Source of the DNA: the human T2T-CHM13v2.0 reference genome, Homo sapiens
Direction: 5' to 3' (one strand)
Assembly: GCF_009914755.1 (NCBI RefSeq)
Contig: NC_060934.1
DNA length: 64,000 nt
Under the pieces are notes generated by a model. That model saw only the letters and a list, made by a program, of their open reading frames with translations. It had not been told where the DNA came from and did not search any database. Shown piece after piece: positions 4,811-61,192 of this stretch. Both the position numbers and the translations under genes were made by a program. The first letter of the stretch is position 1. Each line of letters opens with the position of its first letter.

Positions 4811-5463
<653 letters not shown>

Positions 5464-6419
5464 TTAAAACTGAGTCACTGTGTGCCTGGCCTTTACTCAG
5501 CGCTTCCTCCCATGTCGTGACTGTTATAATGCATCATTACTTCCTCACTATGATTCATCTAGGAACTTGGGGGAGTAATTCATAGTCAGGGATATTTATG
5601 TTTAAACCGACAGAAAGGGAGAGCCATTTGAACACATTATTCCATGTTTTCACTGGTTTTAAATCTGATTTCTGCTGGCTGGGGGAAACTTGAGGAACTG
5701 TGAAGTCATCGTAGGCAGTAGGGAGGTAACGGATAAGGGCCTTTCAAGCATGCAGTGAAGAGACACCAGCTGTACAGCTCCCTCCTGTATGGAAAAGGTG
5801 GAATTTAGACAGTTAAAGTATTAAAGTATACATCACTGGGTTTGAAAACAGCCACAAAAAAACCCCTGTCGGATCACCCAAAACCGCTGGCCCCGTGGCG
5901 CACCATCCCGAGGCTGCCGACTTTGCAGTGGGGCTCTCTTTCCTTCTGGAGTGCAGCAGCATCTGGAATTGTCTGGGAAAACCCTGAAGGATGGCCCACA
6001 CCGAGCCGAAACATCTTTCAAACGGAAATTGTTACACTGTGCTCTTCATCTTGAAATTAATGTTTGGTTGTCAATTTTTATTGCTGACCTAATGGATGAA
6101 GTCCAGCAATTGCAGCTGTCCCCTTAAAGCGGCCCCCAGCGTGTGCTGTGCAGACCTTCTCGGCAGGCTACCCACCCACCTCATCCGTAAGTGGACTCGG
6201 GTAGAGAAAGATATCTGTGCATTGAGAGCTCGTTGGAGATAACTTGAGTCATAATGTGTACTGAGTGTGCTGGGAATCATAGGAGGGTAAAGGTGGTTTT
6301 TAAAAAAGTTATTTTCATTAATTCCTCTCACCCCCAACCCCCTCTGCCACCTGGGACAAAAAAATGGCAGGGTCCTGCTGGATGCCGCTTTCCAAGCTGG
6401 GGCAGACCCGCCAGTGTTG

Positions 6420-9439: not shown

Positions 9440-9810
9440 CCTAAACCCCACGTCCTGAAACCCACACCCTCAGCCTCCACCCCCAAGACCCTACACCCTC
9501 TGACTGCGCACTCCCAGAACCTGCACCTGACCCCACACCCCCTGACCCCACCCCCCCGACCCCACACCCCCTGACCCTACACCCCCTGACCCCACACCCC
9601 CTGACCCCACACCCCTGACCCCACATCCTCTGCATACTCCCAGAACCCACACCTGACCCCACACCCCAGACCCTACATCCTCTGTGCACTCCCAGAACCT
9701 GCACCTGACCCCACCCCCCCGACCTCACACCCCCTGACCCTACATCCTCTGAGTGCGCACTCCCAGAACCCGCACCTGACCCCCACACCCCCTGACACCA
9801 CCCCACAGCC
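9440..9810. repeat. C-rich degenerate tandem repeat (accccacaccccctg units); G-quadruplex-prone on - strand
   Basis: Repeated ctgaccccacacccc and ctcccagaacctgcacctgacccc. Confidence 0.85.
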
Positions 9811-10670
9811 CCCATCTTCAGCCTCTCCTCTGCTGTAGTCCCCAGCCCCTGGCTGGCTTGCTTCTCAGCACAGCCCTGGCCCAGAAGCAGGAGGACACTG
9901 TCAGCCCCTCCTTGCTGGGGGGAGAGTGGTTGGGGCACACCTGTCCCCTGCCCCTCTGCTGCCCACAGCACAGCTAAGTCTTCACCCTGCCTGCGCGCAT
10001 CCCTGTGGCCTTCTGGGAGGTCCCAGTGGGGAGCCTGTCTTCTCCCCAGAACACCCAGTCTCCCTTTGTGCCGGGTCACCCCTGTGAGCAAACAGGCAGG
10101 CATTTCCCTCTTAGGGAAGAAGCCTCCCTTGACCCCGTATCTCCCCAGCTCCTTGTCCTATAGAAACTGATTTCTTGGCAGTGTCTTTCTTTCTTTTTTT
10201 TTTTTTTTTTTTTTTAAGGAAAATGATGGATATTCATGTGGTCAGGACAGCGGTGCCAAAGTGGAGAAACTGCAAACGGCGGTGACGGCTTGACGGGCGT
10301 CACTTTTCCTTGGTCTTTGTCAGTCAGGTCTAATTTATAACAGGGCCATTAGTGGGAGATAGCTTTCTTTGGATGTCTTTTCCCGTAAGGGTTGCTCATG
10401 GTTTGGCCTCAGTAAAGAAAAGAGAAGGTCTCTCTTTCATATTGTTGGAAGCAGCAGGTGGCCCACTCCTTCTGGAGTGAGGCATGGGCATGTGGGCACG
10501 CCTCCATCTGTCAGGAGTGTCCCTGTCTCTCCCTTCTGATTGGGACAGTGGGTCACACTGGTGGCCAGTGGGCAACTGGGGCCCCTGGAGCCGTGGCCTC
10601 CCCTGGGCCCAAGGGAGGCACAGATGACTTAGGAGTGGAGAGTTCAAACGTGGGCTGCGGCGAGGCTTGT

Positions 10671-42749: not shown

Positions 42750-43410
42750 TCACACACAAGCGGCTTCACCCCCCCACATACACACAGCTTCACCCCCACA
42801 CACATGCTTCACCCACAGACACACGTGGCTTCACCCCCCACACAGTGTCTTCACCCACACACACACACACACACTCACATTTACCCATACACACACGTGG
42901 CTTCACCCACACACACACGTGGCTTCACCCCTGCACACACATGGCTTCACACACACACGCACAGCTTCTGCCCCCCAACACACGCGCACCTTCATCCCCG
43001 CACACCCCCACACACACACACGTGCAGCTTCACCCCCGCAGACACATGCGGCTTCACCCCCCCCACACACTCACGGCTTCACCTGCACACACATACACGT
43101 ACGGCTTCACCCCCCCCACACACACACACAGCTTCACCCCCACACACACGCTTGGCTTCACTCCCACACACACACGTGGCTTCACCCCCCCCCACACACA
43201 CAAGCTTCACCCACACACACACGCACGGCTTCACCCCCCACACACACACGTGGCTTCACCCCCACACACACACGCAAGCTTCACCCCCACACACACGCGG
43301 CTTCACACACACATGCCACACACACGCAAGCTTCACCCACACACACACGCACGGCTTCACCCCCCCACACACGCGTGGCTTCACCCCCACACACACGCAG
43401 CTTCACCCGC
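42750..43410. repeat. CA-rich minisatellite, variable ~20-27-bp unit (gcttcacccc(c)acacacacacgtg), >25 copies
   Basis: Recurrent gcttcaccc anchor separated by (CA)n tracts. Confidence 0.92.
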
Positions 43411-46950: not shown

Positions 46951-47114
46951 GGGAGGTGGGAGGGCAGGAGGGCCTCCATGCCATCTCGAGGGGAGCCCTG
47001 CCACCTCTTAAAGAACACCCCTCTTTGGAATCTCATGCTGTTGACTGTTTCACTTGAATTTTGGGGGTACTTTTAGACCAGAGCTCAGGCTCTACGTTCG
47101 GTGGCTCTGCTAGG

Positions 47115-47215
47115 TGGTGGGGATCAGTGAGAGGCATCGGTGGGTGAGAGGCATCGGTGGGTGAACGGCATCGGTGGGTGAGAGGCATCGGTGGGTGGTG
47201 GGGATCAGTGAGAGA
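47115..47215. repeat. 17-bp tandem repeat (gagaggcatcggtgggt) x4, bracketed by ggtggtggggatcagtgaga
   Basis: Read directly from the sequence. Confidence 0.85.
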
Positions 47216-47662
47216 CCACACACACTGTTGGGGTGGGCAGGTCACCCACTGTCCAGGACGCCTGGCTGGGCACGGCTGCTCAAGTCTTCCCTGTGGTCCA
47301 GCCGAGGGCGGCCGTGTGTCTCGAGCTCCCTGATCAGCATCTGTGGTGACAGTGGTTTCCCTGCAGCTGCTCTCACATGGGGGCATGGGGCTCACAGGCG
47401 GCAGGCTGGCACGTTTCTTCATATCTTCCCCCCACCCCACCCCAGGCTGGGCATCAGCAGCCCCTGCAGGCATCTCTGTGCGAAGCCCCACTTGAGGATA
47501 GGTGCACAGCTCGGTTCTCTTTAGTGGGGCGGCATCAGTGCCGGAAGAGCCCTGCTGTTTTTTGTTTGGAAAGCATCTCCTGTGTCCTTTAGGTGTGTGG
47601 GACCCACGTGTTGCTCTTGCTCACTTACTCTGGCTCATTTGTGTGACGTGTTTATTTTTCAG

Positions 47663-47715
47663 TGCAAATGGTCAAGAAAAGGCTTCATCCGGACGAGGTG
47701 GTGCATTGCAGACTG
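47663..47715 (+). CDS. INPP5A: INPP5A internal coding exon (probably exon 7), 53 bp, CKWSRKGFIRTRWCIAD+(C)
   Basis: Acceptor tttatttttcag|TGC and donor TG|gtacgt. Contains the 5-phosphatase KG motif (SRKG). The phase-2 end matches the next exon (TG+T = Cys). Confidence 0.95.
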
Positions 47716-48344
47716 GTACGTGGTGTCTGTGCTTTGTCAATTTCCATAACGTTTCTTACCCTTTTATATCTTGCACCAGCGGCATGTTCCACACACCTCA
47801 TTGGAGGCTCTACTGATTTTGCATGAGGACCCCCAGCTGCCTGACCCCCACCTGCCACTCTGACCCTTTTGGTTCACGGCGATGCATTCGGAGCATTGTC
47901 ACTGTTCCCTGTAAGTCAGACATCTGGGTGCCCAGTGCCAATGGAGACACAGTGACGGCCCCAGTCCCTCCCCGCAGCTGGAGAGTTCCGCTGGCCAGAG
48001 CCCGCTGCACAGAGAAGTCAGCAGGGAGGCCCCCTAGTACTGGGGCCCTGTGGCTGCCCAGTGAGACGGCGTAAGCGCTGCCTGGCAGCCTGGTCCATCA
48101 GCAGACTGAGCACAGACGTAGCGGAGCCTGCGTCTCATCCACATATCCTCTGGCCTGGCCTTTCTGCAGTGAACATGTTCTCGATAGCGCCGCCCCACCT
48201 TTTCTGCATCATAAGAAACAGAAACCTGTTATCTGCTTTCCTAAGGTGGCTTCCAGGTGGCTCCCCAACGTGTCCCTCCAGCCATCACATCTCATTTGAA
48301 TACTGTTTTCATTTTCTTTTCATGGATTTTCCAAAACTTGGCTG

Positions 48345-48600
48345 CTTGATTATCTGCTGCCATGTAACAGACCGCCCTAAACTTAGCAGCTTTAAAAACA
48401 CATACGAGGTCATAGCTGTGAGTGTCTCAGGACCCAGGAGTGGCTTTTCTGGGGCTCTGGCCCTGGTCACCTTGGGGCTTCCAGAGGACTCATCTCCGAG
48501 CTCACTGGGGCTGTGGGCAGGGGTTTCTGCCCCTCCCCCTCGGGCCTCTCCCTGGGGCTGCTCAGGGCAGGACATCCCCAGGAGGAGCAAGAGTCCAGAA
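48345..48600 (-). mobile_element. Degenerate MLT1-type LTR fragment
   Basis: ttatctgctgccatgtaacagaccgccctaaacttagcagctttaaaaac resembles a reverse MLT1 terminus. Confidence 0.45.
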
Positions 48601-48601
48601 A

Positions 48602-48810
48602 GTGAGGGGGATGGAGGGAGGGAGGGGGGAGGAGGGGGAGGAGGAGGGGATGGGGGAAGGAGGGGGAGGGGGAAAAGAAGGAGGTGGGGGAAGAGTGAGA
48701 GAGAAGGGTAGGAGAGGAGAATGGGGAGGGGGAAGAGAGGAGGAGGGAGGAAGGAGGGGGAGAGAAAGAGGAAGAAGAGGGAGGGGGAGGACAGAGGGAG
48801 CTGAGAAGGA
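48602..48810. repeat. Polypurine (GA/GGA) tract
   Basis: ~200 bp almost free of pyrimidines; G4/H-DNA-prone. Confidence 0.9.
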
Positions 48811-49686
48811 GCCGCGGTCCCGTGCCCACCCCAGGCAGTGCAGGCTGCAGGCTGCCCTTTGCTGTTGGTCACAGGGAACAGCCTTGGCATGGTGTGGGGG
48901 CACATGGGGCACGTTCACCAGGCAGCGTCATCGGGGTCATTGTGGCAGCTGGGCCACAGGCTGGAGGAGGGCAAGACCGCCTGCACGCACTCATTCCTGG
49001 CGCCTCCTGGTAGGGAGACGGCCAGGTCTTGGAGCCTGTGGAGGACACGCAGGCAGTGAGGGCTTTGTGGGACAGTGTCCAGACTGTGCCAAGCCCTGCA
49101 CTGACCTCCCCTGGTGAGAGGGCACGTCCTTGCCAGCTGAAGGTGCTGAGGGTCCCCTGCAGTGTGACAGAGGCTCAGGCCTTGATCAGGCCTTGCCGAG
49201 TCCATGTGCCTGCAGGCCCACAGCCGGCCCACGGGGCTTCCCAAGGGTCTTCCCTTTGGGAGTGAAATGAAGCACTCTTCTTGCCTGTCCCTGTGCCCCC
49301 AACCCTGCCTTACAGGGTCCCCGATGGGTGCAGCCGGCAGCCCTGAGCAGCATCAGCTGAGGCTGAGGGGTGGCCCTTCCTCTTAGCTTAGCCATCAGGG
49401 AGAGTTTCCATAGTCACCTGTAAGTTTTTCTCTTTAAAGAAAAGTAGCTCACTTTTTAGTTGCCCAGAGTAACTGCATTTGTAAAGACATATTCAGACTT
49501 CACTGGAGGTTTCCTGACCTCTGGCCTTGTCGGAAGACAGGTGGGTGGACAGGTGCCCCGCCTCGGGTGGCTCCGCACGGCGGAGGCCAGTGCAGGTCTT
49601 ATCTTCCCGGGGACTCCTTGGGAGAACGAAGTGTGACCCGGAGGCTCCGGCCCTTGGTGACGTGTCCTTTTCTCTTTTGGTTGCAG

Positions 49687-49806
49687 TGCCTTTGACTTGG
49701 TGAATATCCATCTTTTCCATGATGCTTCCAATCTGGTCGCCTGGGAAACAAGCCCTTCCGTGTACTCGGGAATCCGGCACAAGGCACTGGGCTACGTGCT
49801 GGACAG
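49687..49806 (+). CDS. INPP5A: INPP5A internal coding exon (probably exon 8), 120 bp, (C)AFDLVNIHLFHDASNLVAWETSPSVYSGIRHKALGYVLD+(R)
   Basis: Acceptor ttttctcttttggttgcag|T and donor CAG|gtaggt. Contains the conserved VNIHL (NxHL) motif of inositol 5-phosphatases. Confidence 0.96.
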
Positions 49807-50240
49807 GTAGGTGTGGGCGGGCAGGTAGGCGTGGGCCGGGCAAGTAGGTGTGCTGGGCAGGCAGGTGTGAGTGGAGAGGTAGGTGTGGGCGGACAAGTAG
49901 GTATGCTGGGCAGGTCGGTGTGGGTGGACAGGTAGGTGGGGTGGACAGGTCAGTGTGGATGGAGAGGTAGGTATGGATGGCAGGTAGGTGTGCTGGGCAG
50001 GTAGGTGTGAGTGGACAGGTCGGTGTGGATGGAGAGGTAGGTGTGGATGGCAGGTAGGTGTGCTGGGCAGGTAGGTGTGAGTGGAGAGGTAGGTGTGCTG
50101 GGCAGGTAGGTGTGAGTGGAGAGGTAGGTGTGCTGGGCAGGTATAGGTATGGGTGGAGAGGTAGGTGTGCTGGGCAGGTATAGGTATGGGTGGAGAGGTA
50201 GGTGTGGGCGGGCGGGTAGGTGGGTGGGCAGGTCGGTGTG
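49801..50240 (+). repeat. ~17-18-bp minisatellite built from the exon donor site (ggrcaggtaggtgtg..), ~25 units
   Basis: The first unit overlaps the authentic CAG|GTAGGT donor. Six further exact CAGGTAGGT copies at 49929, 49981, 49998, 50051, 50068 and 50103, plus ~7 GAGGTAGGT. Confidence 0.93.
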
Positions 50241-51534
50241 TCCACTCACCCTGTTGGCCACTGGGAAAGGCTGTGCCTGCTCTGGGAGGCACACTCTGCT
50301 CTGCGCTTGCTGATTTGCCGATGGGCCTTACTGGAGTTGCCCCATGGAGGTGGCAGAGCCCCCAAGCCCTGGCAAAGGCTGGAGCTGCACCCTCACAATG
50401 GACTTGGATGGGGATGGCTTCACTTTCTCTCTGACTTTTTTGTGGGAAAGATAAGAAAACGGTGCCATGGGGTGCTGTGGTGGGAGGTGAATAGGACACT
50501 GAAGAGTCAGTGGGAGCGTGGGGGCCACCTCCACCTGCGCCTGGGCCCCTGCCCCCCAGTGCTCCGGGCTGCTCCACCGGTGATGCTGTGGAGATGACGG
50601 GCTGTCACTGGGAAGCAGGGAACCCCCATTGGTGGGATGTGTCTGATCTTGGGGCCCGTGTCCCTCCCCATCTACAGCTGGGCCTTTTGCTGAAGCTCAG
50701 GCCCCACAGCCAGGCAGTCTGGGTTTATTCTCTGCCCATTCCAGTTAGGCCTGTCATGGAAACCTTTCCCGCCAGCATCCCTGTGGTTGACAAGACAGTG
50801 CTCCGTCAGCTTGGGCTTGCAGCAGTGATGAACACAGGCCTGAGACCAGCAGTTCTGCCCTGGGGTGGTCCCTGATTTCCACCTGAACCCCATTCTGCTC
50901 CCTAGAGGGCCCCTGACCTGAGCCCCCGCCCAGCCCCCGTGCGTGCAGAATGCGGAGTTACACTCCCGACTAAGCGTGCGAGGGCCTGGAGCTGCCCTGC
51001 GCCTCGCCCACCTTCCAGCAGCTGGCATCCTCAGACGCCGACCTTCTGTTCCCGGGGCCGGTTCTCTCCCACCCACACCTGTCTTAGCCTGGACTTGTGC
51101 AGAGCAGAATAACTGAGTCATTCCCAGGCCACCACTGTCCCTGGGGCAGTCACAACTGCTTGGGGCTGCACAGGCAGAGGCAGGGATTGGCAGGCACTGA
51201 GGTCTGGACCCAGAGAGGGAGGAGGCTGGGCAGGGCCTGGTACCCTCTGAGCCTCTGGGAGGCTTCCTGGGGAAGACAGTGGGAGGAGCAGTCCATGTGG
51301 AGGGGTCCGTGGGTGGGGCCCCTGCCCCAGAGTCATGTGTGGTATGTGACCAGCGCCGTCAGATGCTCAAGAGCAGGAGTGGGAGAGTCCTATGAGAGGC
51401 ACCCCTGGGGACTGTGTGGAGCACATTTCTACCCAAGACCCACGTCCTGAGGGGTCCCTAAGGCAGGTGGGGTTATGAAGGAGAACAGCAGCCAGCAGGT
51501 CCCTGCCTCCTAATAGTGCCTTGTAAGGATAGTG

Positions 51535-52625
51535 TTCAGTGTGCATGTGTGTGCCTGTGCGTGTGTGCATGCCTGAGTGTGCACACCTTGTGTGCATGCA
51601 ATTATGTATGTAATTGTGTGTGTGCACACATGCACATGCATGTGAGTGTATGCACAGTTGCTTGTGGGGTTTGTGTGGGGGTGGGTGTGCGCACATCTGC
51701 GTGTGTGTGTTCGTGTGTGCATGTGTGTGGATGCTTGTGTGTGCATGTGTGGGTGCACGAGTGCATACATATGTGTGTGCACGCGTGTGTGGGTGTGTGT
51801 GGGTGCATGTGTGGTGTGGATGTGTGTGGGTACATGTCTATTTGGGTGTGTGCACACTTGCAGGGGTGTGGGGGTTGCATTGTGTGTGCACACGTGGACA
51901 CATGTGAGTGCACTTGTGTGGCTGCATGTGAGTGCGGGTGTATGTGTGTGCGGGTGTGTGGGTGCATGTGTGTGTGGGTATATGCATGTGTGGGTGCATG
52001 TGAGTGGGTATATGCATGTGTGGGTGCATGTGAGTGGGTATATGCATGTGTGGGTGCATGTGAGTGCAGGTGTATGCATGTGTAGGTGTGTGTGTAGGTG
52101 CATGTGTCTGTGTATTTGGGTGTGTGCATGTGTGCAGGGGTGCACTGATGCATGTGTGCATGTGTGTGGGGCCTCGTGTGGGTGCATATGTGTAGGCTTG
52201 TGTGGGGGTACGTGTCGATGTGTAGGCCTGTGTGGGTGTGCATGTGCCTGTAGGTGTGTGCATGTGTGTGGGTGTGTGCATGCATGGGTGTGGGCGTGTG
52301 GGTGTGTGGGTGCATGTGGATCTGTGTGGATGCATGTGTGCTAAGGTGTATGCATGTGTGCTGGGGTGTATGTATGTATGTGCGTGTGTGTGGGTGTGTG
52401 TGCATATGTGGGGAGAGCATATGCACGTGGGTTGGATATGTGTGCAGGTACATGTGGGTATGTGTGCATGCAGGTTGTGGGTGTGTGGAGTGCATGTGTA
52501 TGTGTGTGTGCGGGTGTGTGTGCATTTGTGGGTATGTGCACATGTATGTGTGTAGGTATGGGTGTGCACACGTGTGTGTAGGTGTACAGGTGTGGGTGCA
52601 TGTGCACATAAGTGTGTACCTGTCA
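51535..52625. repeat. ~1.1-kb (TG)-rich degenerate microsatellite (gtgtgcatgtgtgg)
   Basis: Read directly from the sequence; includes 3 x 30-bp perfect subunits at ~51975-52065. Confidence 0.93.
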
Positions 52626-54619
52626 TAGCTCAGCACTGTGCATCCTGAGGAAGGGGTGGAAGGCTGCATTCTCCAGTAGGTGTGGCTCCAGGGGGAGTTG
52701 GAGCTGATGGGGCCCCTCCTGAATGCTGGCTCCGTCTGCTGCTGTGGTGAGTGTGGCCTGCGTGGCTCCTTGCCTGCCGCCTTCACGATCCTCCCGGGTT
52801 CCCCACAGGGCTCTGCACAAGGAGTCTGGGCTGGGCTCCCATCCCTGTGCTGTTATTAGCGGGTATATGGCCTTGGCTCTCCTCTGCATCTGGCCCTTGC
52901 TGAGGGCCCTGAGGCGTGGCCCCTTATCCCCTCTGACCGCCCCTGACCTCCGTCTCCAGAGTGATGGAGCCCTGGTCCCCTGCCACTAGCCTGGTCCCGG
53001 GGAGGGTGGCAACTGCGAGGCCTGGGTGCTGCTGTGCTCGTGGCCACACACTGAGGCCGGCCCTCAGCCCTGTGCACGGCCACACCCTCTGCAGGGGACC
53101 TGTCCGGCCTCCCGGATATCTCTGGAGCTGGCACTGACACCGAGGCAGGGATCGGTCTGAGCCTGGGGACTGTGCTCTCAACTGCCCACCGTAGGGAAGC
53201 AGCACAGGTGGGGGATGGGGGCCTGGGGCTTTGTCAGCGACAAAGTGACTGATGACCGCCTGTGCCCTGGGCGCCCTCCCTGGACAGCATGTCAGTCGCC
53301 CAGGGAGAAGGGCCTCACCCACAGGAGCGGCGCGGTTCTTCCTGCCTGATCAGCCCTCGGCTTGCAGGCACCAAGCGTCTCGGGGACCTCCCACGGAGCC
53401 CAGGAGCAGGGAGGGCCCTGCCGTGTCTGCTGTTGGGTCTTGGTGACAGCGGTTAGGTTGTCAGCATGGCATGGCATTAAAATGTGTCATTGCCCCTCGC
53501 TGCCATGGCTCCGCGGCCTCAAGAAAGCAGCCTTTGGGCTTTTGGGCCACTTTTCTGCGTCTCTGCATTCCCATGAATGGCTCCTGCGGCGCGCTCAGCC
53601 AGCCGCAGATCCGGACCTCCGCGGCGTGGGGCGGGCCGCGCAACACAAAGGGCGGCTCTGTCGGAGTCTGGAACAATGGGTCGCCCTTTCACCGCGGCTG
53701 CTAACCTCTTGGCAGCCACCAGCAGACCACATTCTGCTGTGCGGATCGGGCAGGACAATGCCGCGCGGCCTCTGAATGGACGCTGCCACCAACGGGGCCC
53801 CATTCACGGCGTTGGGAACCGGGCGCACATTGTCTGCCCCGCAGGGAGACAGCGAGGAGGCTCCTGCAGCCTCTTCCTGGTTTAATCTCCCCGCGCGGCT
53901 TCCCAGGTCCATGTCCCGTATCAGCTGCGGGGCCGGCAGCACCAGGCCCAGGAGGGAGGGCAGGTCCCAGCCCTGGAGGAGGATGCAGGCCAGGTTAAAA
54001 CCCAGAGGCACCGTAGGACCTTCGCACCGTTGCTCTAAACCTAAACGCATTCCAGAGTAGGAAGATGATTGTAAAACAACTGAGAGACAAGCTCTGAGTT
54101 AAAGTCTTCAGAAGCAGCCCCAGGGCGAGTGCTGCGGGGTGCCTGCCACCACCACAGCCAGTCACAGGGCTCCACTGGACTTCTTATCACAGATGCGAAC
54201 CTTTACTTTTTTGTGTGTAATTTTTGAAATTGTTGCTGTTAACCTCTTGTTATGAGAAGTTTAAAAAGAAGACAAATCCCTAATGAGTGAGGAGGACCAG
54301 GCTCTGGGCAGGTGTTGGCGGCATCTGTGCTGGGCTGGGGTCCTGGACCCTGGGTGAGGCCGGGCCGTGCACACCCTTGTGTGGCTCTTGGAGGCGCCGA
54401 GCACTCAGCCCGTGTTGGGGGCAGCCCCGGTCCCTCTCCTGGACACACAGGTCAGCCCTTGGGGGGCATCTGGGGGCTGAGCCAGAGGTGCACGTCAGCC
54501 TTCCTAGGCACCATCCACTGAGGCGTCCCGAAACCTTCCTGAGCTTTCAGCTGGAAAGGAGATTTTCCCATAAGTGACGGGACTCTTTGTCTCCCCTCTG
54601 AAATGTGGCCTGGGCTAGT

Positions 54620-55060
54620 TCAACAGAAACATTTTACATTACAACTGTGAAATCTCGGCATAAAGCACCCCTTTGTCCCCCCATTATTTTCTCACAAATA
54701 CAGTCCATTGTCATGGCGCTGAAGTTAATTTGATCAACATTGGGACATTTAACTTTTATGTCCAGTCAAAAGAGTTGTTTCATGCTCATTTTGGGCATTC
54801 AAAGGAAATGATTGCCAGAAAAATAATGTTCTTCTGAACAATTCCAAGCAATTAGTTTCCCAGGGAGAGGTGACGTGATGCCCGCGCCCCAGCCCCGCTT
54901 TGTGGCTTTATGGAGGGCCATCAGTTAGCTGTCAGCCGCTCAAAGAGCCCCCAACCTAAATGTTTCTCTTTAGACGTTCCCAGAACTTGCCTTGCTGTGC
55001 AGCCAGTAAAGAAAAGCTGCTGCGTCTCCAGGCAAAGGCAAACTCGGCATTAAAGATCTG
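54620..55060. promoter_or_regulatory. Candidate conserved enhancer island
   Basis: ccattgtcatggcgctgaagttaatttgatcaacattggg (SOX-like CATTGT), aacaattccaagcaattag, tttatgg. Inferred from composition only. Confidence 0.45.
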
Positions 55061-56449
55061 GGTCACCCTGAGCGCTCCTGGCCACAGGGCTGGTTCTCGC
55101 GCTCCTCACACTCCCGCTGGCCTCGGAGAACAGCTCACAGGCTCTTGCTGGTCGTGGGCTCGTCCCAATCAGGCTTTCTCAGACTCGGAGACCTCAGGGT
55201 GGCCGAGGTCATGTGTCTGTGGAGCCCACCAGGCACCCTGTGGTGTCCCTCCGCATGCCCGGGACTCCTGGCAGCACAAGCCCGTGCCCTCTGCCGTTCC
55301 GCTGCCGTGAAGCCCGCTGCCTCTGTGTCGCCTTAGCCTCTCCAGGGCGTGGTCGGTCCACTGCTGCCCGGCAGGAGGGGCTCCTTTCGCCTGTGCCTCA
55401 GCTGATCCATGGCTGCGATCTTCATTTTGTTGAACATGGAGTCAAGAGCCAAGAAAGGTGGTGCCGCTATGCAGATGCAGGGGCAGCACCTGCACCCGCC
55501 ACGCACCCTGCACGTTCTCCGCATGTTTCCTTTCCTTAAGAAACAAACCATGTGGGCCCGCAGGTGCCCCGTCCTCCATCCTGAACCCCATCCTGGCCCC
55601 CAGCATCAGCCTGAATTCAGCACCTGTCGCTCCTTTGCAGCTTTCTGGCCTCTTGTGACACAGGCACGGATGTTTCTGTACTTTTATTATGTGCCAGCTG
55701 GAGGCAAGCGTCGACGTGACGTTGCTGTGACGCCTGTGTGTGGTTTATGTCTTTACACATGTCATCGCCTGTGACCAACATGTCCAGCATCCTGTGAACG
55801 GAGTCTGCCGGACGTCTCCACGAGCTCCAGCCACGGTGCTCGGTCATGGGACTCGCTGCCGGCTGTCTGGAGAGCGTTTGGGTGGTTCCCGGCCCTTTGG
55901 TGGCAGACAGGACGATGCCTGTGCTGGGCCATGGGGGCCGTGTGTCTCCACTCCCGCTGGTCCTTTCCACACCCTGAACCCCAGCGTCACCACTGGCATC
56001 TCAGCCAGTTGTGTTTTCTGCTAGCTGGAGAGGAGTGGGGGGTCCTGGAGGTTGAGGCACTTCTGTGCCGCACCAGTTTTTGTGGTTTATGGCGGTGTCC
56101 AAGCAGAGTTTGAGAGGGTGGGTCTCAGAGTGAGAAAAACAAAAGTAAAATGGCGATGCTCCGTGTGGAGAGCATGAGAGCGGCGGCTGCCGAAGGAGAG
56201 CCCTGCACAGCCCTCCTGCCGCCCTGCACGGGGCTCCCCGCACGACTCTGCCCGAGAGCACTTGATGTGGGGATGGACTCATCGAAGGGAGTGTGGGCTT
56301 TAAAAGGTGCCAGACACTGAGAAGGCACATACTGCTGGGGCCCAGGATGCCCCCAGCCCCAAGGCTGAGGTCCAGAGGCCATCTCAGCCCCGCCCACCGC
56401 AACACAACTCTGTGGCGGGGCTTTGCAGCCGACCTTAGTTCTCAGTTTG

Positions 56450-56620: not shown

Positions 56621-56845
56621 GCTGGCCCCTAAAGGGTTGGGGCTCCGAGGCTGGGACTCACTGGGTGGGGAAGTCAGGGGGCCTTTGGGTGCGGCACTGG
56701 GGATCAGCGGGTTGGTCAAGGAGCTTCCTCAAGAGCAGTGGTTGCTGTGACTCCACCCAGTGAGCAGCCTGGCTGCCCCAGGCACTTTGGGGGCTCTGCT
56801 AGCCCTGAGGCTGACCCTGCTGCTTCAGAACATCCCGCCATCTGC

Positions 56846-59800
56846 CTGGGTTCTGCCTGGAGGAGCCTTAGACGACTGTCTTCAGGGTTCTGTGGTACCT
56901 GGGTTCTGTCTGAGGGCGCCTTAGACGGCTGTCTTGTGGGTTCTGTGGTACCTGGGTTCTTTCTGGGGGCGCCTTAGACAGCTGTCTTCAGGGTTCTGTG
57001 GTGCCTGGGTTCTGTCTGGGCGCCTTAGACGGCTGTCTTGCGGGTTCTGTGGTGCCTGGGTTCTGTCTGGGCGCCTTAGACAGCTGTCTTCAGGGTTCTG
57101 TGGTACCTGGGTTCTGTCTGGGCACCTTAGACGACTGTCTTCAGGGTTCTGTGGTACCTGGGTTCTGTCTGGGCACCTTAGACGGCTGTCTTGCGGGTTC
57201 TGTGGTACCTGGGTTCTGTCTGGGCGCCTTAGACGGCTGTCTTCAGGGTTCTGTGGTACCTGGGTTCTGTCTGGGCACCTTAGACGGCTGTCTTGCGGGT
57301 TCTGTGGTACCTGGGTTCTTTCTGGGGGCGCCTTAGACAGCTGTCTTCAGGGTTCTGTGGTACCTGAGTTCTGTCTGGGCGCCTTAGACGGCTGTCTTGC
57401 GGGTTCTGTGGTGCGTGGGTTCTGTCTGGGTGCCTTAGACGGCCGTCTTCAGGGTTCTGTGGTACCTGGGATCTGTCTGGGCGCCTTAGACAGCTGTCTT
57501 CAGGGTTCTGTGGTACCTGGGTTCTGTCTGGGCGCCTTAGACGGCTGTCTTCAGGGTTCTGTGGTACCTGGGTTCTGTCTGGGCACCTTAGACGGCTGTC
57601 TTGCGGGTTCTGTGGTACCTGGGTTCTTTCTGGGGGCGCCTTAGACAGCTGTCTTCAGGGTTCTGTGGTACCTGGGTTCTGTCTGAGCACCTTAGACAGC
57701 TGTCTTCAGGGTTCTGTGGTGCCTGGGTTCTGTCTGGGCGCCTTAGACGACTGTCTTGCGGGTTCTGTGGTACCTGGGTTCTGTCTGGGCGCCTTAGATG
57801 GCTGTCTTCAGGGTTCTGTGGTGCCTGGGTTCTCTCTGGGCGCCTTAGATGGCTGTCTTGCGGGTTCTGTGGTACCTGGGTTCTGTCTGGGCACCTTAGA
57901 CGACTGTCTTCAGGGTTCTGTGGTACCTGGGTTCTGTCTAGGCACCTTAGACGACTGTCTTCAGGGTTCTGTGGTGCCTGGTTTCTGTCTGGGCGCCTTA
58001 GATGCTGTCTTCAGGGTTCTGTGGTGCCTGGGTTCTGTCTGAGCGCCTTAGACGGTTGTCTGGCGGGTTCTGTGGTACCTGGGTTCTGTCTGGGCACCTT
58101 AGACGACTGTCTTCAGGGTTCTGTGGTACCTCGGTTCTGTCTGGGCACCTTAGACAGCTGTCTTGCGGGTTCTGTGGTACCTGGGTTCTGTCTGGGCACC
58201 TTAGACGGCTGTCTTCAGGGTTCTGTGGTGCCTGGGTTCTGTCTGGACGCCTTAGACGGCTGTCTTGCGGGTTCTGTGGTACCTGGGTTCTGTCTGGGCG
58301 CCTTAGACGACTGTCTTGCGGGTTCTGTGGTACCTGGGTTCTGTCTGGGCGCCTTAGACGACTGTCTTGCGGGTTCTGTGGTACCTGGGTTCTGTCTGGG
58401 CGCCTTAGACGGCTGTCTCGCGGGTTCTGTGGTACCTGGGTTCTGTCTGGGCACCTTAGACGACTGTCTTCAGGGTTCTGTGGTACCTGGGTTCTGTCTG
58501 GGTGCCTTAGACGGCTGTCTTGCGGGTTCTGTGGTACCTGGGTTCTGTCTGGGCACCTTAGACGACTGTCTTGGGGGTTCTGTGGTACCTGGGTTCTGTC
58601 TGGGCACCTTAGACAGCTGTCTTCAGGGTTCTGTGGCAACTGGGTTCTGTCTGGGCGCCTTAGGCGGCTGTCTTCAGGGTTCTGTGGTACCTGGGTTCTG
58701 TCTGGGCGCCTTAGACGGCTGTCTTGCGGGTTCTGTGGTACCTGGGTTCTGTCTGGGCACCTTAGACGGCTGTCTTCAGGGTTCTGTGGTACCTGGGTTC
58801 TGTCTGGGCACCTTAGACGGCTGTCTTGCGGGTTCTGTGGTACCTGGGTTCTGTCTGGGCGCCTTAGACGGCTGTCTTGCGGGTTCTGTGGTGCCTGGGT
58901 TCTGTCTGGGTGCCTTAGACGGCTGTCTTGCGGGTTCTGTGGTGCCTGGGTTCTTTCTGGAGGCGCCTTAGACAGCTGTCTTGCGGGTTCTGTGGTACCT
59001 GGGTTCTGTCTGGGCACCTTAGACGGCTGTCTTGCAGGTTCTGTGGTACCTGGGTTCTGTCTGGGCGCCTTAGACGGCTGTCTTCAGGGTTCTGTGGTAC
59101 CTGGGTTCTTTCTGGGTGCCTTAGACGGCTGTCTTGTGGGTTCTGTGGTGCCTGGGTTCTGTCTGGGCACCTTAGACGACTGTCTTCAGGGTTCTGTGGT
59201 ACCTCGGTTCTGTCTGGGCGCCTTAGACGGCTGTCTTCAGGGTTCTGTGGTACCTGGGTTCTGTCTGGGCACCTTAGACGGCTGTCTTCAGGGTTCTGTG
59301 GTACCTGGGTTCTTTCTGGGGGCACCTTAGATAGCTGTCTTCAGGGTTCTGTGGTGCCTGGGTTCTGTCTGGGCGCCTTAGACGGCTGTCTTGTGGGTTC
59401 TGTGGTACCTGGGTTCTGTCTGGGCGCCTTAGACGGCTGTCTTGCGGGTTCTGTGGTACCTGGGTTCTGTCCGGGCACCTTAGATGGCTGTCTTCAGGGT
59501 TCTGTGGTACCTGGGTTCTGTCTGGACACCTTAGACGGCTGTCTTGTGGGTTCTGTGGCACCTGGGTTCTGTCTGGGCACCTTAGACGGCTGTCTTGCGG
59601 GTTCTGTGGTGCCTGGGTTCTGTCTGGGTGCCTTAGACGGCTGTCTTGCGGGTTCTGTGGTGCCTGGGTTCTTTCTGGAGGCGCCTTAGACAGCTGTCTT
59701 CAGGGTTCTGTGGTACCTGGGTTCTGTCTGGGCACCTTAGACGGCTGTCTTGCGGGTTCTGTGGTACCTGGGTTCTGTCTGGGCGCCTTAGACGGCTGTC

Positions 59801-61192
59801 TTCAGGGTTCTGTGGTACCTGGGTTCTGTCTGGGTGCCTTAGACAGCTGTCTTGCGGGTTCTTTGGTGCCTGGGTTCTGTCTGGGCACCTTAGACGACTG
59901 TCTTCAGGGTTCTGTGGTACCTCGGTTCTGTCTGGGCACCTTAGACGGCTGTCTTCAGGGTTCTGTGGTACCTGGGTTCTGTCTGGGCACCTTAGACGGC
60001 TGTCTTCAGGGTTCTGTGGTACCTGGGTTCTTTCTGGGGGCACCTTAGACAGCTGTCTTCAGGGTTCTGTGGTGCCTGAGTTCTGTCTGGGCGCCTTAGA
60101 CGGCTGTCTTGCGGGTTCTGTGGTACCTGGGTTCTGTCTGGGCGCCTTAGATGGCTGTCTTGCGGGTTCTGTGGTACCTGGGTTCTGTCTGGGCACCTTA
60201 GACGGCTGTCTTCAGGGATCTGTGGTACCTGGGTTCTGTCTGGGCGCCTTAGACGGCTGTCTTGCGGGTTCTGTGGTGCCTGGGTTCTGTCTGGGCGCCT
60301 TAGACGGCTGTCTTGCGGGTTCTGTGGTGCCTGGGTTCTGTCTGGGCACCTTAGACGACTGTCTTCAGGGTTCTGTGGTACCTGGGTTCTGTCTGGGGGC
60401 CTTAGATGGCTGTCTTCAGGGTTCTGTGGTACCTGGGTTCTGCCTGGAGGAGCCTTAGACGACTGTCTTCAGGGTTCTGTGGTACCTGGGTTCTGTCTGG
60501 GCGCCATAGACGGCTGTCTTCAGGGTTCTGTGATACCTGGGTTCTTTCTGGGGGCGCCTTAGACTGCTGTCTTCAGGGTTCTGTGGTGCCTGGGTTCTGT
60601 CTGGGCACCTTAGATAGCTGTCTTGCGGGTTCTGTGGTGCCTGGGTTCTGTCTGGGCGCCTTAGACGGCTGTCTTGCGGGTTCTGTGGTACCTGGATTCT
60701 TTCTGGGGGCGCCTTAGACAGCTGTCTTCAGGGTTCTGTGGTGCCTGGGTTCTGTCTGGGTGCCTTAGACGGCTGGCTTCAGGGTTCTGTGGTACCTGGG
60801 TTCTGTCTGGGCGCCTTAGACGGCTGTCTTCAGGGTTCTGTGGTGCCTGGGTTCTGTCTGGGGGCCTTAGACGGCTATCTTGCGGTTTCTGTGGTGCCTG
60901 GGTTCTGTCTGGGCACCTTAGACGGCTGTCTTCAGGGTTCTGTGGTACCTGGGTTCTGTCTGGGCACCTTAGACAGCTGTCTTCAGGGTTCTGTGGTGCC
61001 TGGGTTCTGTCTGGGCACCTTAGACAGCTGTCTTGCGGGTTCTGTGGTGCCTGGGTTCTGTCTGGGCGCCTTAGACTGCTGTCTTCAGGGTTCTGTGGTG
61101 CCTGGGTTCTGTCTGGGCACCTGAGACGGCTGTCTTGCGGGTTCTGTGGTGCCTAGGTTCTGTCTGGGGGCGCCTTAGATGGCTGTCTTGCC
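56846..61192. repeat. Large VNTR, 51-bp unit (gggttctgtggtacctgggttctgtctgggcgccttagacggctgtcttca) with interspersed 53-bp variants, ~85 copies
   Basis: Continuous ~4.35-kb array; source of the 17-aa-repeat ORFs in the track. Confidence 0.98.

What the first reader, a model, noticed from the sequence alone, without database searches (positions are those of the whole stretch)
49801..50240. Minisatellite made of the exon's own 5' splice site: a decoy donor array behind an in-frame stop
Seen in the sequence: the repeat starts at the authentic donor CAG|GTAGGT. It contains 6 more exact CAGGTAGGT, ~7 GAGGTAGGT and several weaker variants, spaced ~17-18 nt apart and separated by G-runs and UG dinucleotides. 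Read-through of the exon frame gives GAC AGG TAG, so use of any downstream donor adds a premature stop (an NMD substrate, or a protein lacking the C-terminal catalytic motifs). Inference: the locus either has a mechanism that forces use of the first of ~14 near-equal U1 sites, or the array works as a copy-number-tunable poison-splicing or U1-loading element controlling INPP5A dosage.
Basis: partly seen in the sequence, partly recalled or inferred. Interest (0 to 1): 0.7.

Follow-up and report, generated by a model that had tools for sequence, protein, structure and literature searches.

The report
Repeated splice-donor minisatellite in INPP5A intron
A short DNA repeat that grew out of an INPP5A exon-intron junction copies that exon's splice signal about two dozen times, a rare arrangement already described at ABCA7, and nothing here shows that the copies regulate the gene.

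Summary
Window 49796-50240 holds a 25-unit, 17-18 bp minisatellite with a 35-bp higher order. Unit 1 is the annotated INPP5A donor CAG|GTAGGT. Thirteen of the 24 downstream units carry CAGGTAGGT (6) or GAGGTAGGT (7). Five share the donor's 11-mer. Three match it at 21 of 22 positions, including 10 of the last 11 exon bases. Read-through gives GAC AGG TAG, so any downstream donor adds a premature stop.

Best reading: a minisatellite seeded by duplication of the exon-intron junction in a repeat-dense region (about 20 arrays in 64 kb). I infer that the first donor wins because only it has exon context. The spacers carry 21 GGG runs and 20 UAGG, motifs reported to suppress the downstream of two competing donors.

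The arrangement is not new. The ABCA7 intron-18 repeat also starts at a donor. Its second-unit donor gives about 2% of transcripts, sensitive to nonsense-mediated decay (NMD) and independent of repeat length.

Copy-number-tuned poison splicing remains untested. I had no RNA data, no second human haplotype and no orthologue. My searches found no paper on this array.

The parts
49687..49806 (+). INPP5A coding exon (120 nt), phase-2 end ...CTG GAC AG|
   Evidence: Hub annotation. Frame 0 is open across the four exons. The acceptor is cttttctcttttggttgcag|.
49804..49812 (+). Authentic 5' splice site CAG|GTAGGT, which is unit 0 of the array
   Evidence: Computed U1 duplex energy is -13.7 kcal/mol. 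The other three INPP5A donors in the window give -6.0 to -9.5.
49808..49810 (+). In-frame TAG, read if any downstream donor is used
   Evidence: GAC AGG TAG.
49796..50240 (+). Whole minisatellite of 25 units of 17-18 bp with a 35-bp higher order. Its left edge lies 11 nt inside the exon.
   Evidence: TRF, unit table, homology into the exon.
49825..49966 (+). Proximal, more diverged units 1-8. Only 2 of 8 keep a strong donor (GAGGTAGGT with GT at 49879, CAGGTAGGT with GT at 49932). The others carry -1A, +2C (GC), +3C or +6C changes.
   Evidence: Copies here are 62-69% identical to the reference copy.
49967..50215 (+). Distal, homogeneous units 9-22. 11 of 14 are strong donors. They include the five 11-mer-identical copies (GT at 49984, 50001, 50054, 50071, 50106) and recent 70-bp and 37-bp duplications.
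   Evidence: (49952-50009 against 50022-50079, 97%).
49815..49840 (+). G-run cluster just downstream of the authentic donor. It fits a loose G-quadruplex pattern (loops up to 12 nt).
50206..50224 (+). The only canonical G3+ / loop 1-7 quadruplex motif, at the 3' end of the array

Best explanation
This is a G-rich intronic minisatellite that arose by tandem duplication of about 18 bp spanning the INPP5A exon-intron junction and was then amplified, so each unit carries a copy of the donor.

Shown:
- Its structure and its origin in the junction.
- The local equality of five copies with the real donor.
- The in-frame stop.

Inferred:
- Productive splicing uses unit 0 because only that site follows a real 120-nt exon with a strong acceptor (exon definition).
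- The sequence between unit 0 and any copy is packed with GGG runs and UAGG. For the upstream site these act as intronic enhancers. For the downstream sites they act as silencers in what would be exon.
- U1 bound to the copies probably helps define the exon more than it competes.
- Occasional use of a copy gives a stop-containing mRNA removed by NMD, at the level of a few percent.
- The array has no dedicated regulatory role, though its length may be polymorphic.
For: Structure and origin:
- Array structure and motif counts.
- Homology reaches 11 nt into the coding exon, 10 of 11 positions. The null is 0.04% of all window 11-mers and 0.8% of those ending in CAG. Overall match is 21 of 22 around three copies.
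- Internal recent duplications: 97% identity over 58 nt at a 70-bp offset, and two repeated 37-bp units.

Background:
- The window holds about 20 distinct tandem arrays, roughly 10 of 64 kb.
- Similar G/T-rich minisatellites with 15-54 NAGGTRGGT words exist at five other loci fetched from the same genome (from 24 matches). Donor-like words are therefore a common by-product of this sequence class.

Spacer content:
- 21 GGG runs and 20 UAGG in 434 nt. UAGG occurs 0.86 times per 434 nt elsewhere in the window and 4.6 times in shuffles.

Literature:
- Silencers and intronic elements placed between competing 5' splice sites suppress the downstream site, in 26 of 31 elements tested (passages of PMC1877881).
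- A G-rich element between the PLP and DM20 donors enhances the upstream one through hnRNP H/F (abstract of PMC1919487).
- UAGG acts through hnRNP A1 as a silencer (abstract of PMC1079783).
- Cryptic intronic sites are used where the intervening sequence is enhancer-rich and silencer-poor (abstract of PMC2095810).
- Modified U1 snRNAs bound downstream of a donor rescue exon inclusion (abstract of PMC4289686).

Precedent:
- The ABCA7 repeat includes the exon 18 donor. Its next-unit donor gives 2 +/- 1% of transcripts, rises with cycloheximide and is not length dependent.
- I located it in the same assembly and saw the same layout.

Annotation:
- No RefSeq exon listed for this window uses a copy (hub table).
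Against: - No RNA evidence of any kind was available, so the low usage figure is borrowed from ABCA7. The ABCA7 copies are weak donors (computed -4.4 to -5.8 kcal/mol). The INPP5A copies are near-consensus (-12.3 to -13.7), so they could be used much more often and be hidden by NMD.
- RefSeq rarely lists NMD isoforms.
- Classical in vitro work (recalled, not from a call) found that with equally occupied sites the one nearest the acceptor is preferred. That would favour the copies.
- Predicted accessibility does not favour the authentic site over all copies. It scores 0.091, against 0.065-0.389 for the seven GAGGTAGGT copies and 0.006-0.061 for the six CAGGTAGGT copies.
- The weakening of six of the eight nearest copies could reflect selection against decoy use. 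That would mean decoys do matter.
- Polymorphism and age of the array were not testable.
Confidence: 0.6

Rival explanations
1. Poison-splicing rheostat. A substantial share of INPP5A pre-mRNA is spliced from the copies. The stop-containing products are degraded, and the number of strong copies sets INPP5A dosage.
For: - 13 copies are within 1.4 kcal/mol of the authentic donor in computed U1 pairing, and 5 have an identical 11-mer.
- The TAG is in frame for every copy.
- Recent internal duplications suggest the copy number can change.
- ABCA7 shows that such copies can be used and that the products are NMD-sensitive.
Against: - At ABCA7, decoy use was about 2% and independent of length.
- The spacers are rich in motifs reported to suppress downstream donors.
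- No RefSeq exon in the window uses a copy (hub table).
- No INPP5A paper on VNTR, tandem-repeat splicing, sQTL or NMD concerned this array.
- Supplements of three repeat catalogues gave nothing on it.
Confidence: 0.15
2. Selected splicing enhancer. The array is kept because it loads U1 and hnRNP H/F just downstream of the exon, and so secures definition of this exon in front of an intron longer than 14 kb.
For: - U1 bound downstream of a donor rescues exon inclusion.
- G-rich elements enhance the upstream donor.
- G runs begin 9 nt after the donor.
- The next exon lies beyond the window end, so the intron exceeds 14 kb (hub table).
Against: - The authentic donor is already the strongest of the four in the window (-13.7 against -6.0 to -9.5 kcal/mol), and the acceptor has a long pyrimidine tract. 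Extra help seems unnecessary.
- The internal structure looks like ordinary minisatellite turnover.
- Comparable arrays occur elsewhere in the genome.
- Conservation could not be tested.
Confidence: 0.15
3. DNA-level or transcription-level element. The strongly G-skewed sense strand forms R-loops or quadruplexes that pause RNA polymerase II after the exon. The donor words are incidental.
For: GC skew is 0.74 and G content 54%. There is one canonical and one loose G-quadruplex motif, at the two ends of the array.
Against: - Only 1 canonical quadruplex motif in 441 bp, and only 1 GGGG against 36 expected in shuffles.
- No data on R-loops or pausing.
- This reading does not explain homology to the exon end.
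Confidence: 0.05
4. Chance juxtaposition. A pre-existing G/T-rich minisatellite merely abuts the exon, and the exon borrowed its donor from the array.
For: The region is very repeat-dense. Unrelated arrays of the same sequence class carry the same words.
Against: Units copy 10 of the last 11 coding bases of the exon. The null is 0.8% even among 11-mers ending in CAG. The coding end of the exon is constrained by the protein, so the direction of copying is from exon to array.
Confidence: 0.05

Closest known systems
ABCA7 intron-18 25-bp VNTR (De Roeck et al. 2018, PMC5954066; passages and section 21 read; also PMC13747324 passages)
   Same: - An intronic tandem repeat that includes the donor of the upstream exon, so each unit starts with a donor copy.
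- Use of a downstream unit adds intron sequence and a premature stop.
- In the same assembly the ABCA7 array starts 4 nt before the first donor GT (TRF start 2005, GT 2009 in L011). The copies equal the authentic site in computed U1 pairing.
   Different: - ABCA7 units are C-rich with weak donors (CCY|GTGAGC, -4.4 to -5.8 kcal/mol). INPP5A units are G-rich with near-consensus donors (-12.3 to -13.7).
- ABCA7 has RNA, Southern-blot and disease-association data. INPP5A has none that I could find.
- In ABCA7 the stop comes through a frameshift. Here the TAG lies inside the donor word itself.
G-run (hnRNP H/F) and UAGG (hnRNP A1) elements between competing 5' splice sites, such as the PLP/DM20 M2 enhancer (PMC1919487 abstract; PMC1877881 passages; PMC1079783 abstract)
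   Same: GGG runs and UAGG words lie between an upstream and a downstream donor. The published effect favours the upstream site.
   Different: Those are single elements between two sites and were tested by mutation. Here the motifs are part of a 25-unit repeat, UAGG is part of the donor word itself, and nothing was tested.
Exon-specific U1 snRNAs binding downstream of a donor (PMC4289686 abstract)
   Same: U1-complementary sites in the intron just downstream of a donor.
   Different: Those are engineered U1s directed at non-donor sequence. Here natural U1 would bind functional-looking donors that could themselves be spliced.
VNTRs that alter splicing in population studies (Hamanaka et al. 2023, PMC10078293, passages; Mukamel et al. 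2023 Cell, not held)
   Same: An intronic repeat near a splice site that may act as a length-dependent splicing modifier.
   Different: INPP5A was absent from the 10 searchable supplement files of PMC10078293 (file 1 was not searched). My memory that Mukamel et al. describe a donor-carrying repeat at CUL4A is recalled only and could not be checked.

Membership tests
Minisatellite / VNTR | Head-to-tail units of about 10-100 bp | tested here: met
   TRF period 18 / 35, 24.9 / 12.5 copies, score 389 / 426. 25 units tabulated.
Minisatellite / VNTR | Copy number varies among individuals | not testable with these tools
   Only one human assembly is held. Recent internal duplications make variation likely but do not show it. 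The catalogues searched did not list this array.
Donor-embedded intronic VNTR (ABCA7 type) | The array includes the authentic 5' splice site of the upstream exon | tested here: met
   Array edge at 49796, donor GT at 49807. ABCA7 has the same layout in the same assembly.
Donor-embedded intronic VNTR (ABCA7 type) | Units carry donor copies comparable to the authentic one | tested here: met
   13 of 24 copies are CAGGTAGGT or GAGGTAGGT, and 5 share the 11-mer.
Donor-embedded intronic VNTR (ABCA7 type) | Downstream-unit donors are seen in RNA and the products are NMD-sensitive | not testable with these tools
   No RNA data available. No paper found.
Regulated unproductive splicing (AS-NMD) element | The alternative event introduces a premature stop upstream of later exon junctions | tested here: met
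   TAG at 49808-49810 in frame. Further exons of the 16-exon transcript lie downstream of the window (hub table).
Regulated unproductive splicing (AS-NMD) element | The event occurs at an appreciable, regulated level and changes gene output | not testable with these tools
   No expression or junction data.
Intronic G-run splicing enhancer | GGG runs within about 100 nt downstream of the donor | tested here: met
   GGG at 49815 and 49819 onward, 21 runs in 434 nt.
Intronic G-run splicing enhancer | hnRNP H/F binding and loss of donor use on mutation | not testable with these tools
   No CLIP or mutational data.
TDP-43 UG-repeat element | Long (UG)n tract | tested here: not met
   18 GUGUG but 0 UGUGU, so no run reaches three UG repeats.

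The most novel reading that the evidence does not exclude
The array is a length- and composition-polymorphic VNTR whose near-consensus donor copies divert a sizeable, NMD-masked share of INPP5A transcripts. In that case the number of intact copies would be a hidden cis dosage variant for an inositol-phosphatase gene. The mutated copies nearest the exon would be scars of selection against decoy use.
Probability: 0.12. Interest if true: 0.7.

Novelty: new member of a known kind. Interest (0 to 1): 0.4.

Why it matters
The locus is a natural experiment in 5' splice-site choice. Thirteen near-consensus copies, five identical over 11 nt and three matching at 21 of 22 positions, compete with one productive site. 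It can therefore test directly how exon context and G-run/UAGG spacers override local donor strength.

If the copies are used, the array would be a repeat-length dosage variant that SNP-based studies miss. INPP5A is named in GWAS papers on insulin resistance (passages) and on brain age (listing only). Neither links to this array.

The hub's list of the longest masked stretches does not include this 441-bp array, so repeat-aware pipelines may overlook it.

If the copies are silent, the finding is an ordinary minisatellite with an unusual origin.

Tried and rejected
- Watson-Crick secondary structure hiding the copies. Local unpaired probabilities do not separate the authentic site (0.091) from the copies (0.006-0.389).
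- G-quadruplex sequestration of the whole array. There is only one canonical motif, at the 3' end.
- Telescripting need. There is no AATAAA on the + strand within 47000-56000, and the nearest ATTAAA is at 53476.
- TDP-43 UG-repeat element. There are no long UG runs.
- Literature on INPP5A. The search with VNTR gave 1 irrelevant paper. The search with tandem repeat and splicing gave 9 papers, 8 listed, none relevant by title or abstract start. The search with sQTL gave 4 papers, and the one I read concerns a missense variant. The search with nonsense-mediated gave 8 papers, titles only, none on this exon.
- General literature. The search minisatellite + 5' splice site + U1 snRNA gave 0 papers.
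- Supplements. PMC10078293 has no INPP5A in 10 files, with file 1 unsearched. PMC8096271 has one INPP5A repeat of unknown position at FDR 0.13. PMC8024321 lists only a 3'-UTR AT repeat, which is not an eQTL.
- Papers not held: Mukamel 2023 and a guessed id for an all-5'-splice-site activity study. No empirical donor-strength table or MaxEnt score could therefore be used. Donor strength rests on a simple U1 duplex calculation that ignores pseudouridines.
- A Pfam check of the exon-encoded protein was not run. Gene identity rests on the hub annotation.

Full report
**What is there**

The sequence at 49796-50240 is a tandem array. Tandem Repeats Finder reports 49800-50240 with period 18 (24.9 copies, 72% matches, score 389) and period 35 (12.5 copies, 79% matches, score 426). 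I cut it into 25 units of 16-20 nt, mostly 17 or 18.

Unit 0 is the annotated INPP5A donor CAG|GTAGGT, with the exon ending at 49806 and GT at 49807.

- The word CAGGTAGGT occurs 7 times on the + strand of the 64-kb window, and so does GAGGTAGGT. All 14 occurrences are in the array.
- The other 11 units carry one to three changes. These are CAGGTCGGT x3, CAAGTAGGT x2, CAGGTATAG x2, and one each of CAGGTAGGC, CAGGCAGGT, CAGGTCAGT and CGGGTAGGT.
- Of the 47 + strand sites in the window that match a strong donor consensus at 8 or more of 9 positions, 22 lie in these 434 nt.

**Frame**

The four annotated exons, joined by coordinates, are open only in frame 0. The exon ends ...CTG GAC AG. Reading on gives GAC AGG TAG, with the stop at 49808-49810. 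Any downstream donor would leave that stop in the mRNA. Several copies would add a multiple of 3 nt, but frame 0 across the array is full of stops. No in-frame insertion isoform is possible.

**How similar the copies are**

- Five copies (GT at 49984, 50001, 50054, 50071, 50106) share the 11-mer CAGGTAGGTGT with the authentic site.
- Three of these (50001, 50071, 50106) are also preceded by GTGCTGGGCAG, against the exon's GTGCTGGACAG. That is 21 of 22 positions.
- I computed a simple duplex energy against the 5' end of U1 snRNA. The U1 sequence is a short motif recalled from memory, and pseudouridines were ignored. The energy is -13.7 kcal/mol for the authentic site and the five copies, and -12.3 for the seven GAGGTAGGT units.
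- The three other INPP5A donors in the window give only -6.0 to -9.5.

**Origin**

Homology to the units runs 11 nt into the coding exon and stops at 49796. Only 0.04% of all window 11-mers (25 of 63,517), and 0.8% of those ending in CAG (14 of 1,682), match any unit's upstream 11-mer at 10 or more positions. The exon end is protein-constrained, so the units were copied from the junction and not the reverse.

The array has recent higher-order duplications. Segment 49952-50009 matches 50022-50079 at 97%, and there are repeated 35-bp and 37-bp units. The half next to the exon is more diverged. Among units 1-8 only 2 keep a strong donor, against 11 of 14 among units 9-22. This could reflect age or selection. 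I cannot tell which.

**Background**

The window is very repeat-dense, with about 20 distinct arrays at TRF score 80 or more, roughly 10 of 64 kb. A search of the window's own genome with the array gave 24 matches. One is the array itself and the other 23 are about 67-79% identical.

Among the nine other loci fetched, which include two overlapping windows on one array, several are G/T-rich minisatellites full of donor-like words. One has 28 NAGGTRGGT, one 54, and one has 21 plus 25 AGGTRAGT. Arrays of U1-like words are thus a common by-product of this sequence class. What is special here is that the array contains a working donor.

**Why the first site would win (inferred)**

The 434 intronic nt are 54% G and 8% C. 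They hold 21 GGG runs, 20 UAGG (0.86 per 434 nt elsewhere in the window, 4.6 in shuffles) and 18 GUGUG. Published work bears on this.

- Silencers and conserved intronic elements placed between two competing 5' splice sites suppress the downstream site, in 26 of 31 elements tested. A GGGTGGGTGGG control was the strongest suppressor in the companion 3' splice-site reporter (passages of PMC1877881).
- A G-rich element between the PLP and DM20 donors enhances the upstream donor through hnRNP H/F (abstract of PMC1919487).
- UAGG silences exons through hnRNP A1 (abstract of PMC1079783).
- Cryptic intronic sites are activated where the intervening sequence is enhancer-rich and silencer-poor (abstract of PMC2095810).
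- U1 particles bound just downstream of a donor rescue exon inclusion (abstract of PMC4289686).

Together these predict that only unit 0 is used. It alone follows a real 120-nt exon with a strong acceptor. U1 on the copies would then help more than harm.

Predicted RNA accessibility does not explain the choice. The authentic site scores 0.091 and the copies 0.006-0.389. There is only one canonical quadruplex motif.

**Precedent**

- Use of the donor one unit downstream adds 25 nt and a premature stop.
- The frameshift isoforms made up 14 +/- 6% and 2 +/- 1% of transcripts. The second figure is the one-unit retention.
- Both rose with cycloheximide, and neither depended on repeat length. Length did affect skipping of the next exon (section 21).
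- A 2026 paper repeats this picture (passages).

I located that array in the same assembly with a primer printed in the paper. It has a 25-bp unit and 39.9 or more copies, running off the locus. It starts 4 nt before the donor GT. Its donors are weak, at -4.4 kcal/mol for the authentic site and -4.7 to -5.8 for the copies. The INPP5A array is thus a second member of a known arrangement, with much stronger copies.

**What is not known**

I had no RNA data, no second human haplotype and no orthologue.

- Searches for INPP5A with VNTR, tandem repeat plus splicing, sQTL, and nonsense-mediated decay found nothing on this array.
- A search for minisatellite with 5' splice site and U1 snRNA found no paper.
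- Supplements of three repeat catalogues held nothing on it, and one file could not be searched.
- Mukamel et al. 2023 was not held. My memory of a donor-carrying repeat at CUL4A in that paper is unverified.

The strong copies could be used far more than at ABCA7 and be hidden by NMD. I put that at about 0.12-0.15.

**Verdict**

The array does come from the exon's own donor, and the stop is in frame. No special forcing mechanism is needed, and a dosage-tuning role is untested. This is a new member of a known kind, of moderate interest as a natural test case for splice-site choice.

Noticed in passing
window 56845-61189: A 4.3-kb minisatellite with a 51-bp unit, 84.7 copies and 90% matches, in the same INPP5A intron as the donor array.
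   Followed up: no
window 4835-5200: A 52-bp unit repeated 7 times at 98% matches. The unit looks Alu-derived to me (my impression, no call). It overlaps the RefSeq enhancer 5110-6309 (hub table).
   Followed up: no
window 9526-9812 and 42751-43408: C-rich arrays on the + strand contain CCCCACACC-type words that are partly complementary to the GGTGTGGG words of the donor array. They lie in other introns of the same pre-mRNA. I computed no duplex.
   Followed up: no
L003 (G000:C1:229968989-229969398); L006 (C4:8013006-8013316); L002/L007 (C17:46303329-46303993, minus strand): Other G/T-rich minisatellites carry dozens of donor-like words. L003 has a 20-bp unit TGTAGGTAAGTAGGTAGGTG x 36 with 25 AGGTRAGT. 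L006 has 54 NAGGTRGGT. L002 and L007 have 28. Their gene context is unknown.
   Followed up: partly
L011 2005-3020 (G000:C19, ABCA7 intron 18): In this assembly the ABCA7 VNTR has at least 39.9 units of 25 bp and runs off the fetched locus. The authentic donor and the unit donors are equally weak in computed U1 pairing.
   Followed up: yes
window 49800-50240: The 441-bp array is not among the longest masked stretches listed in the hub table, although shorter stretches are. It may not be masked as one block.
   Followed up: no
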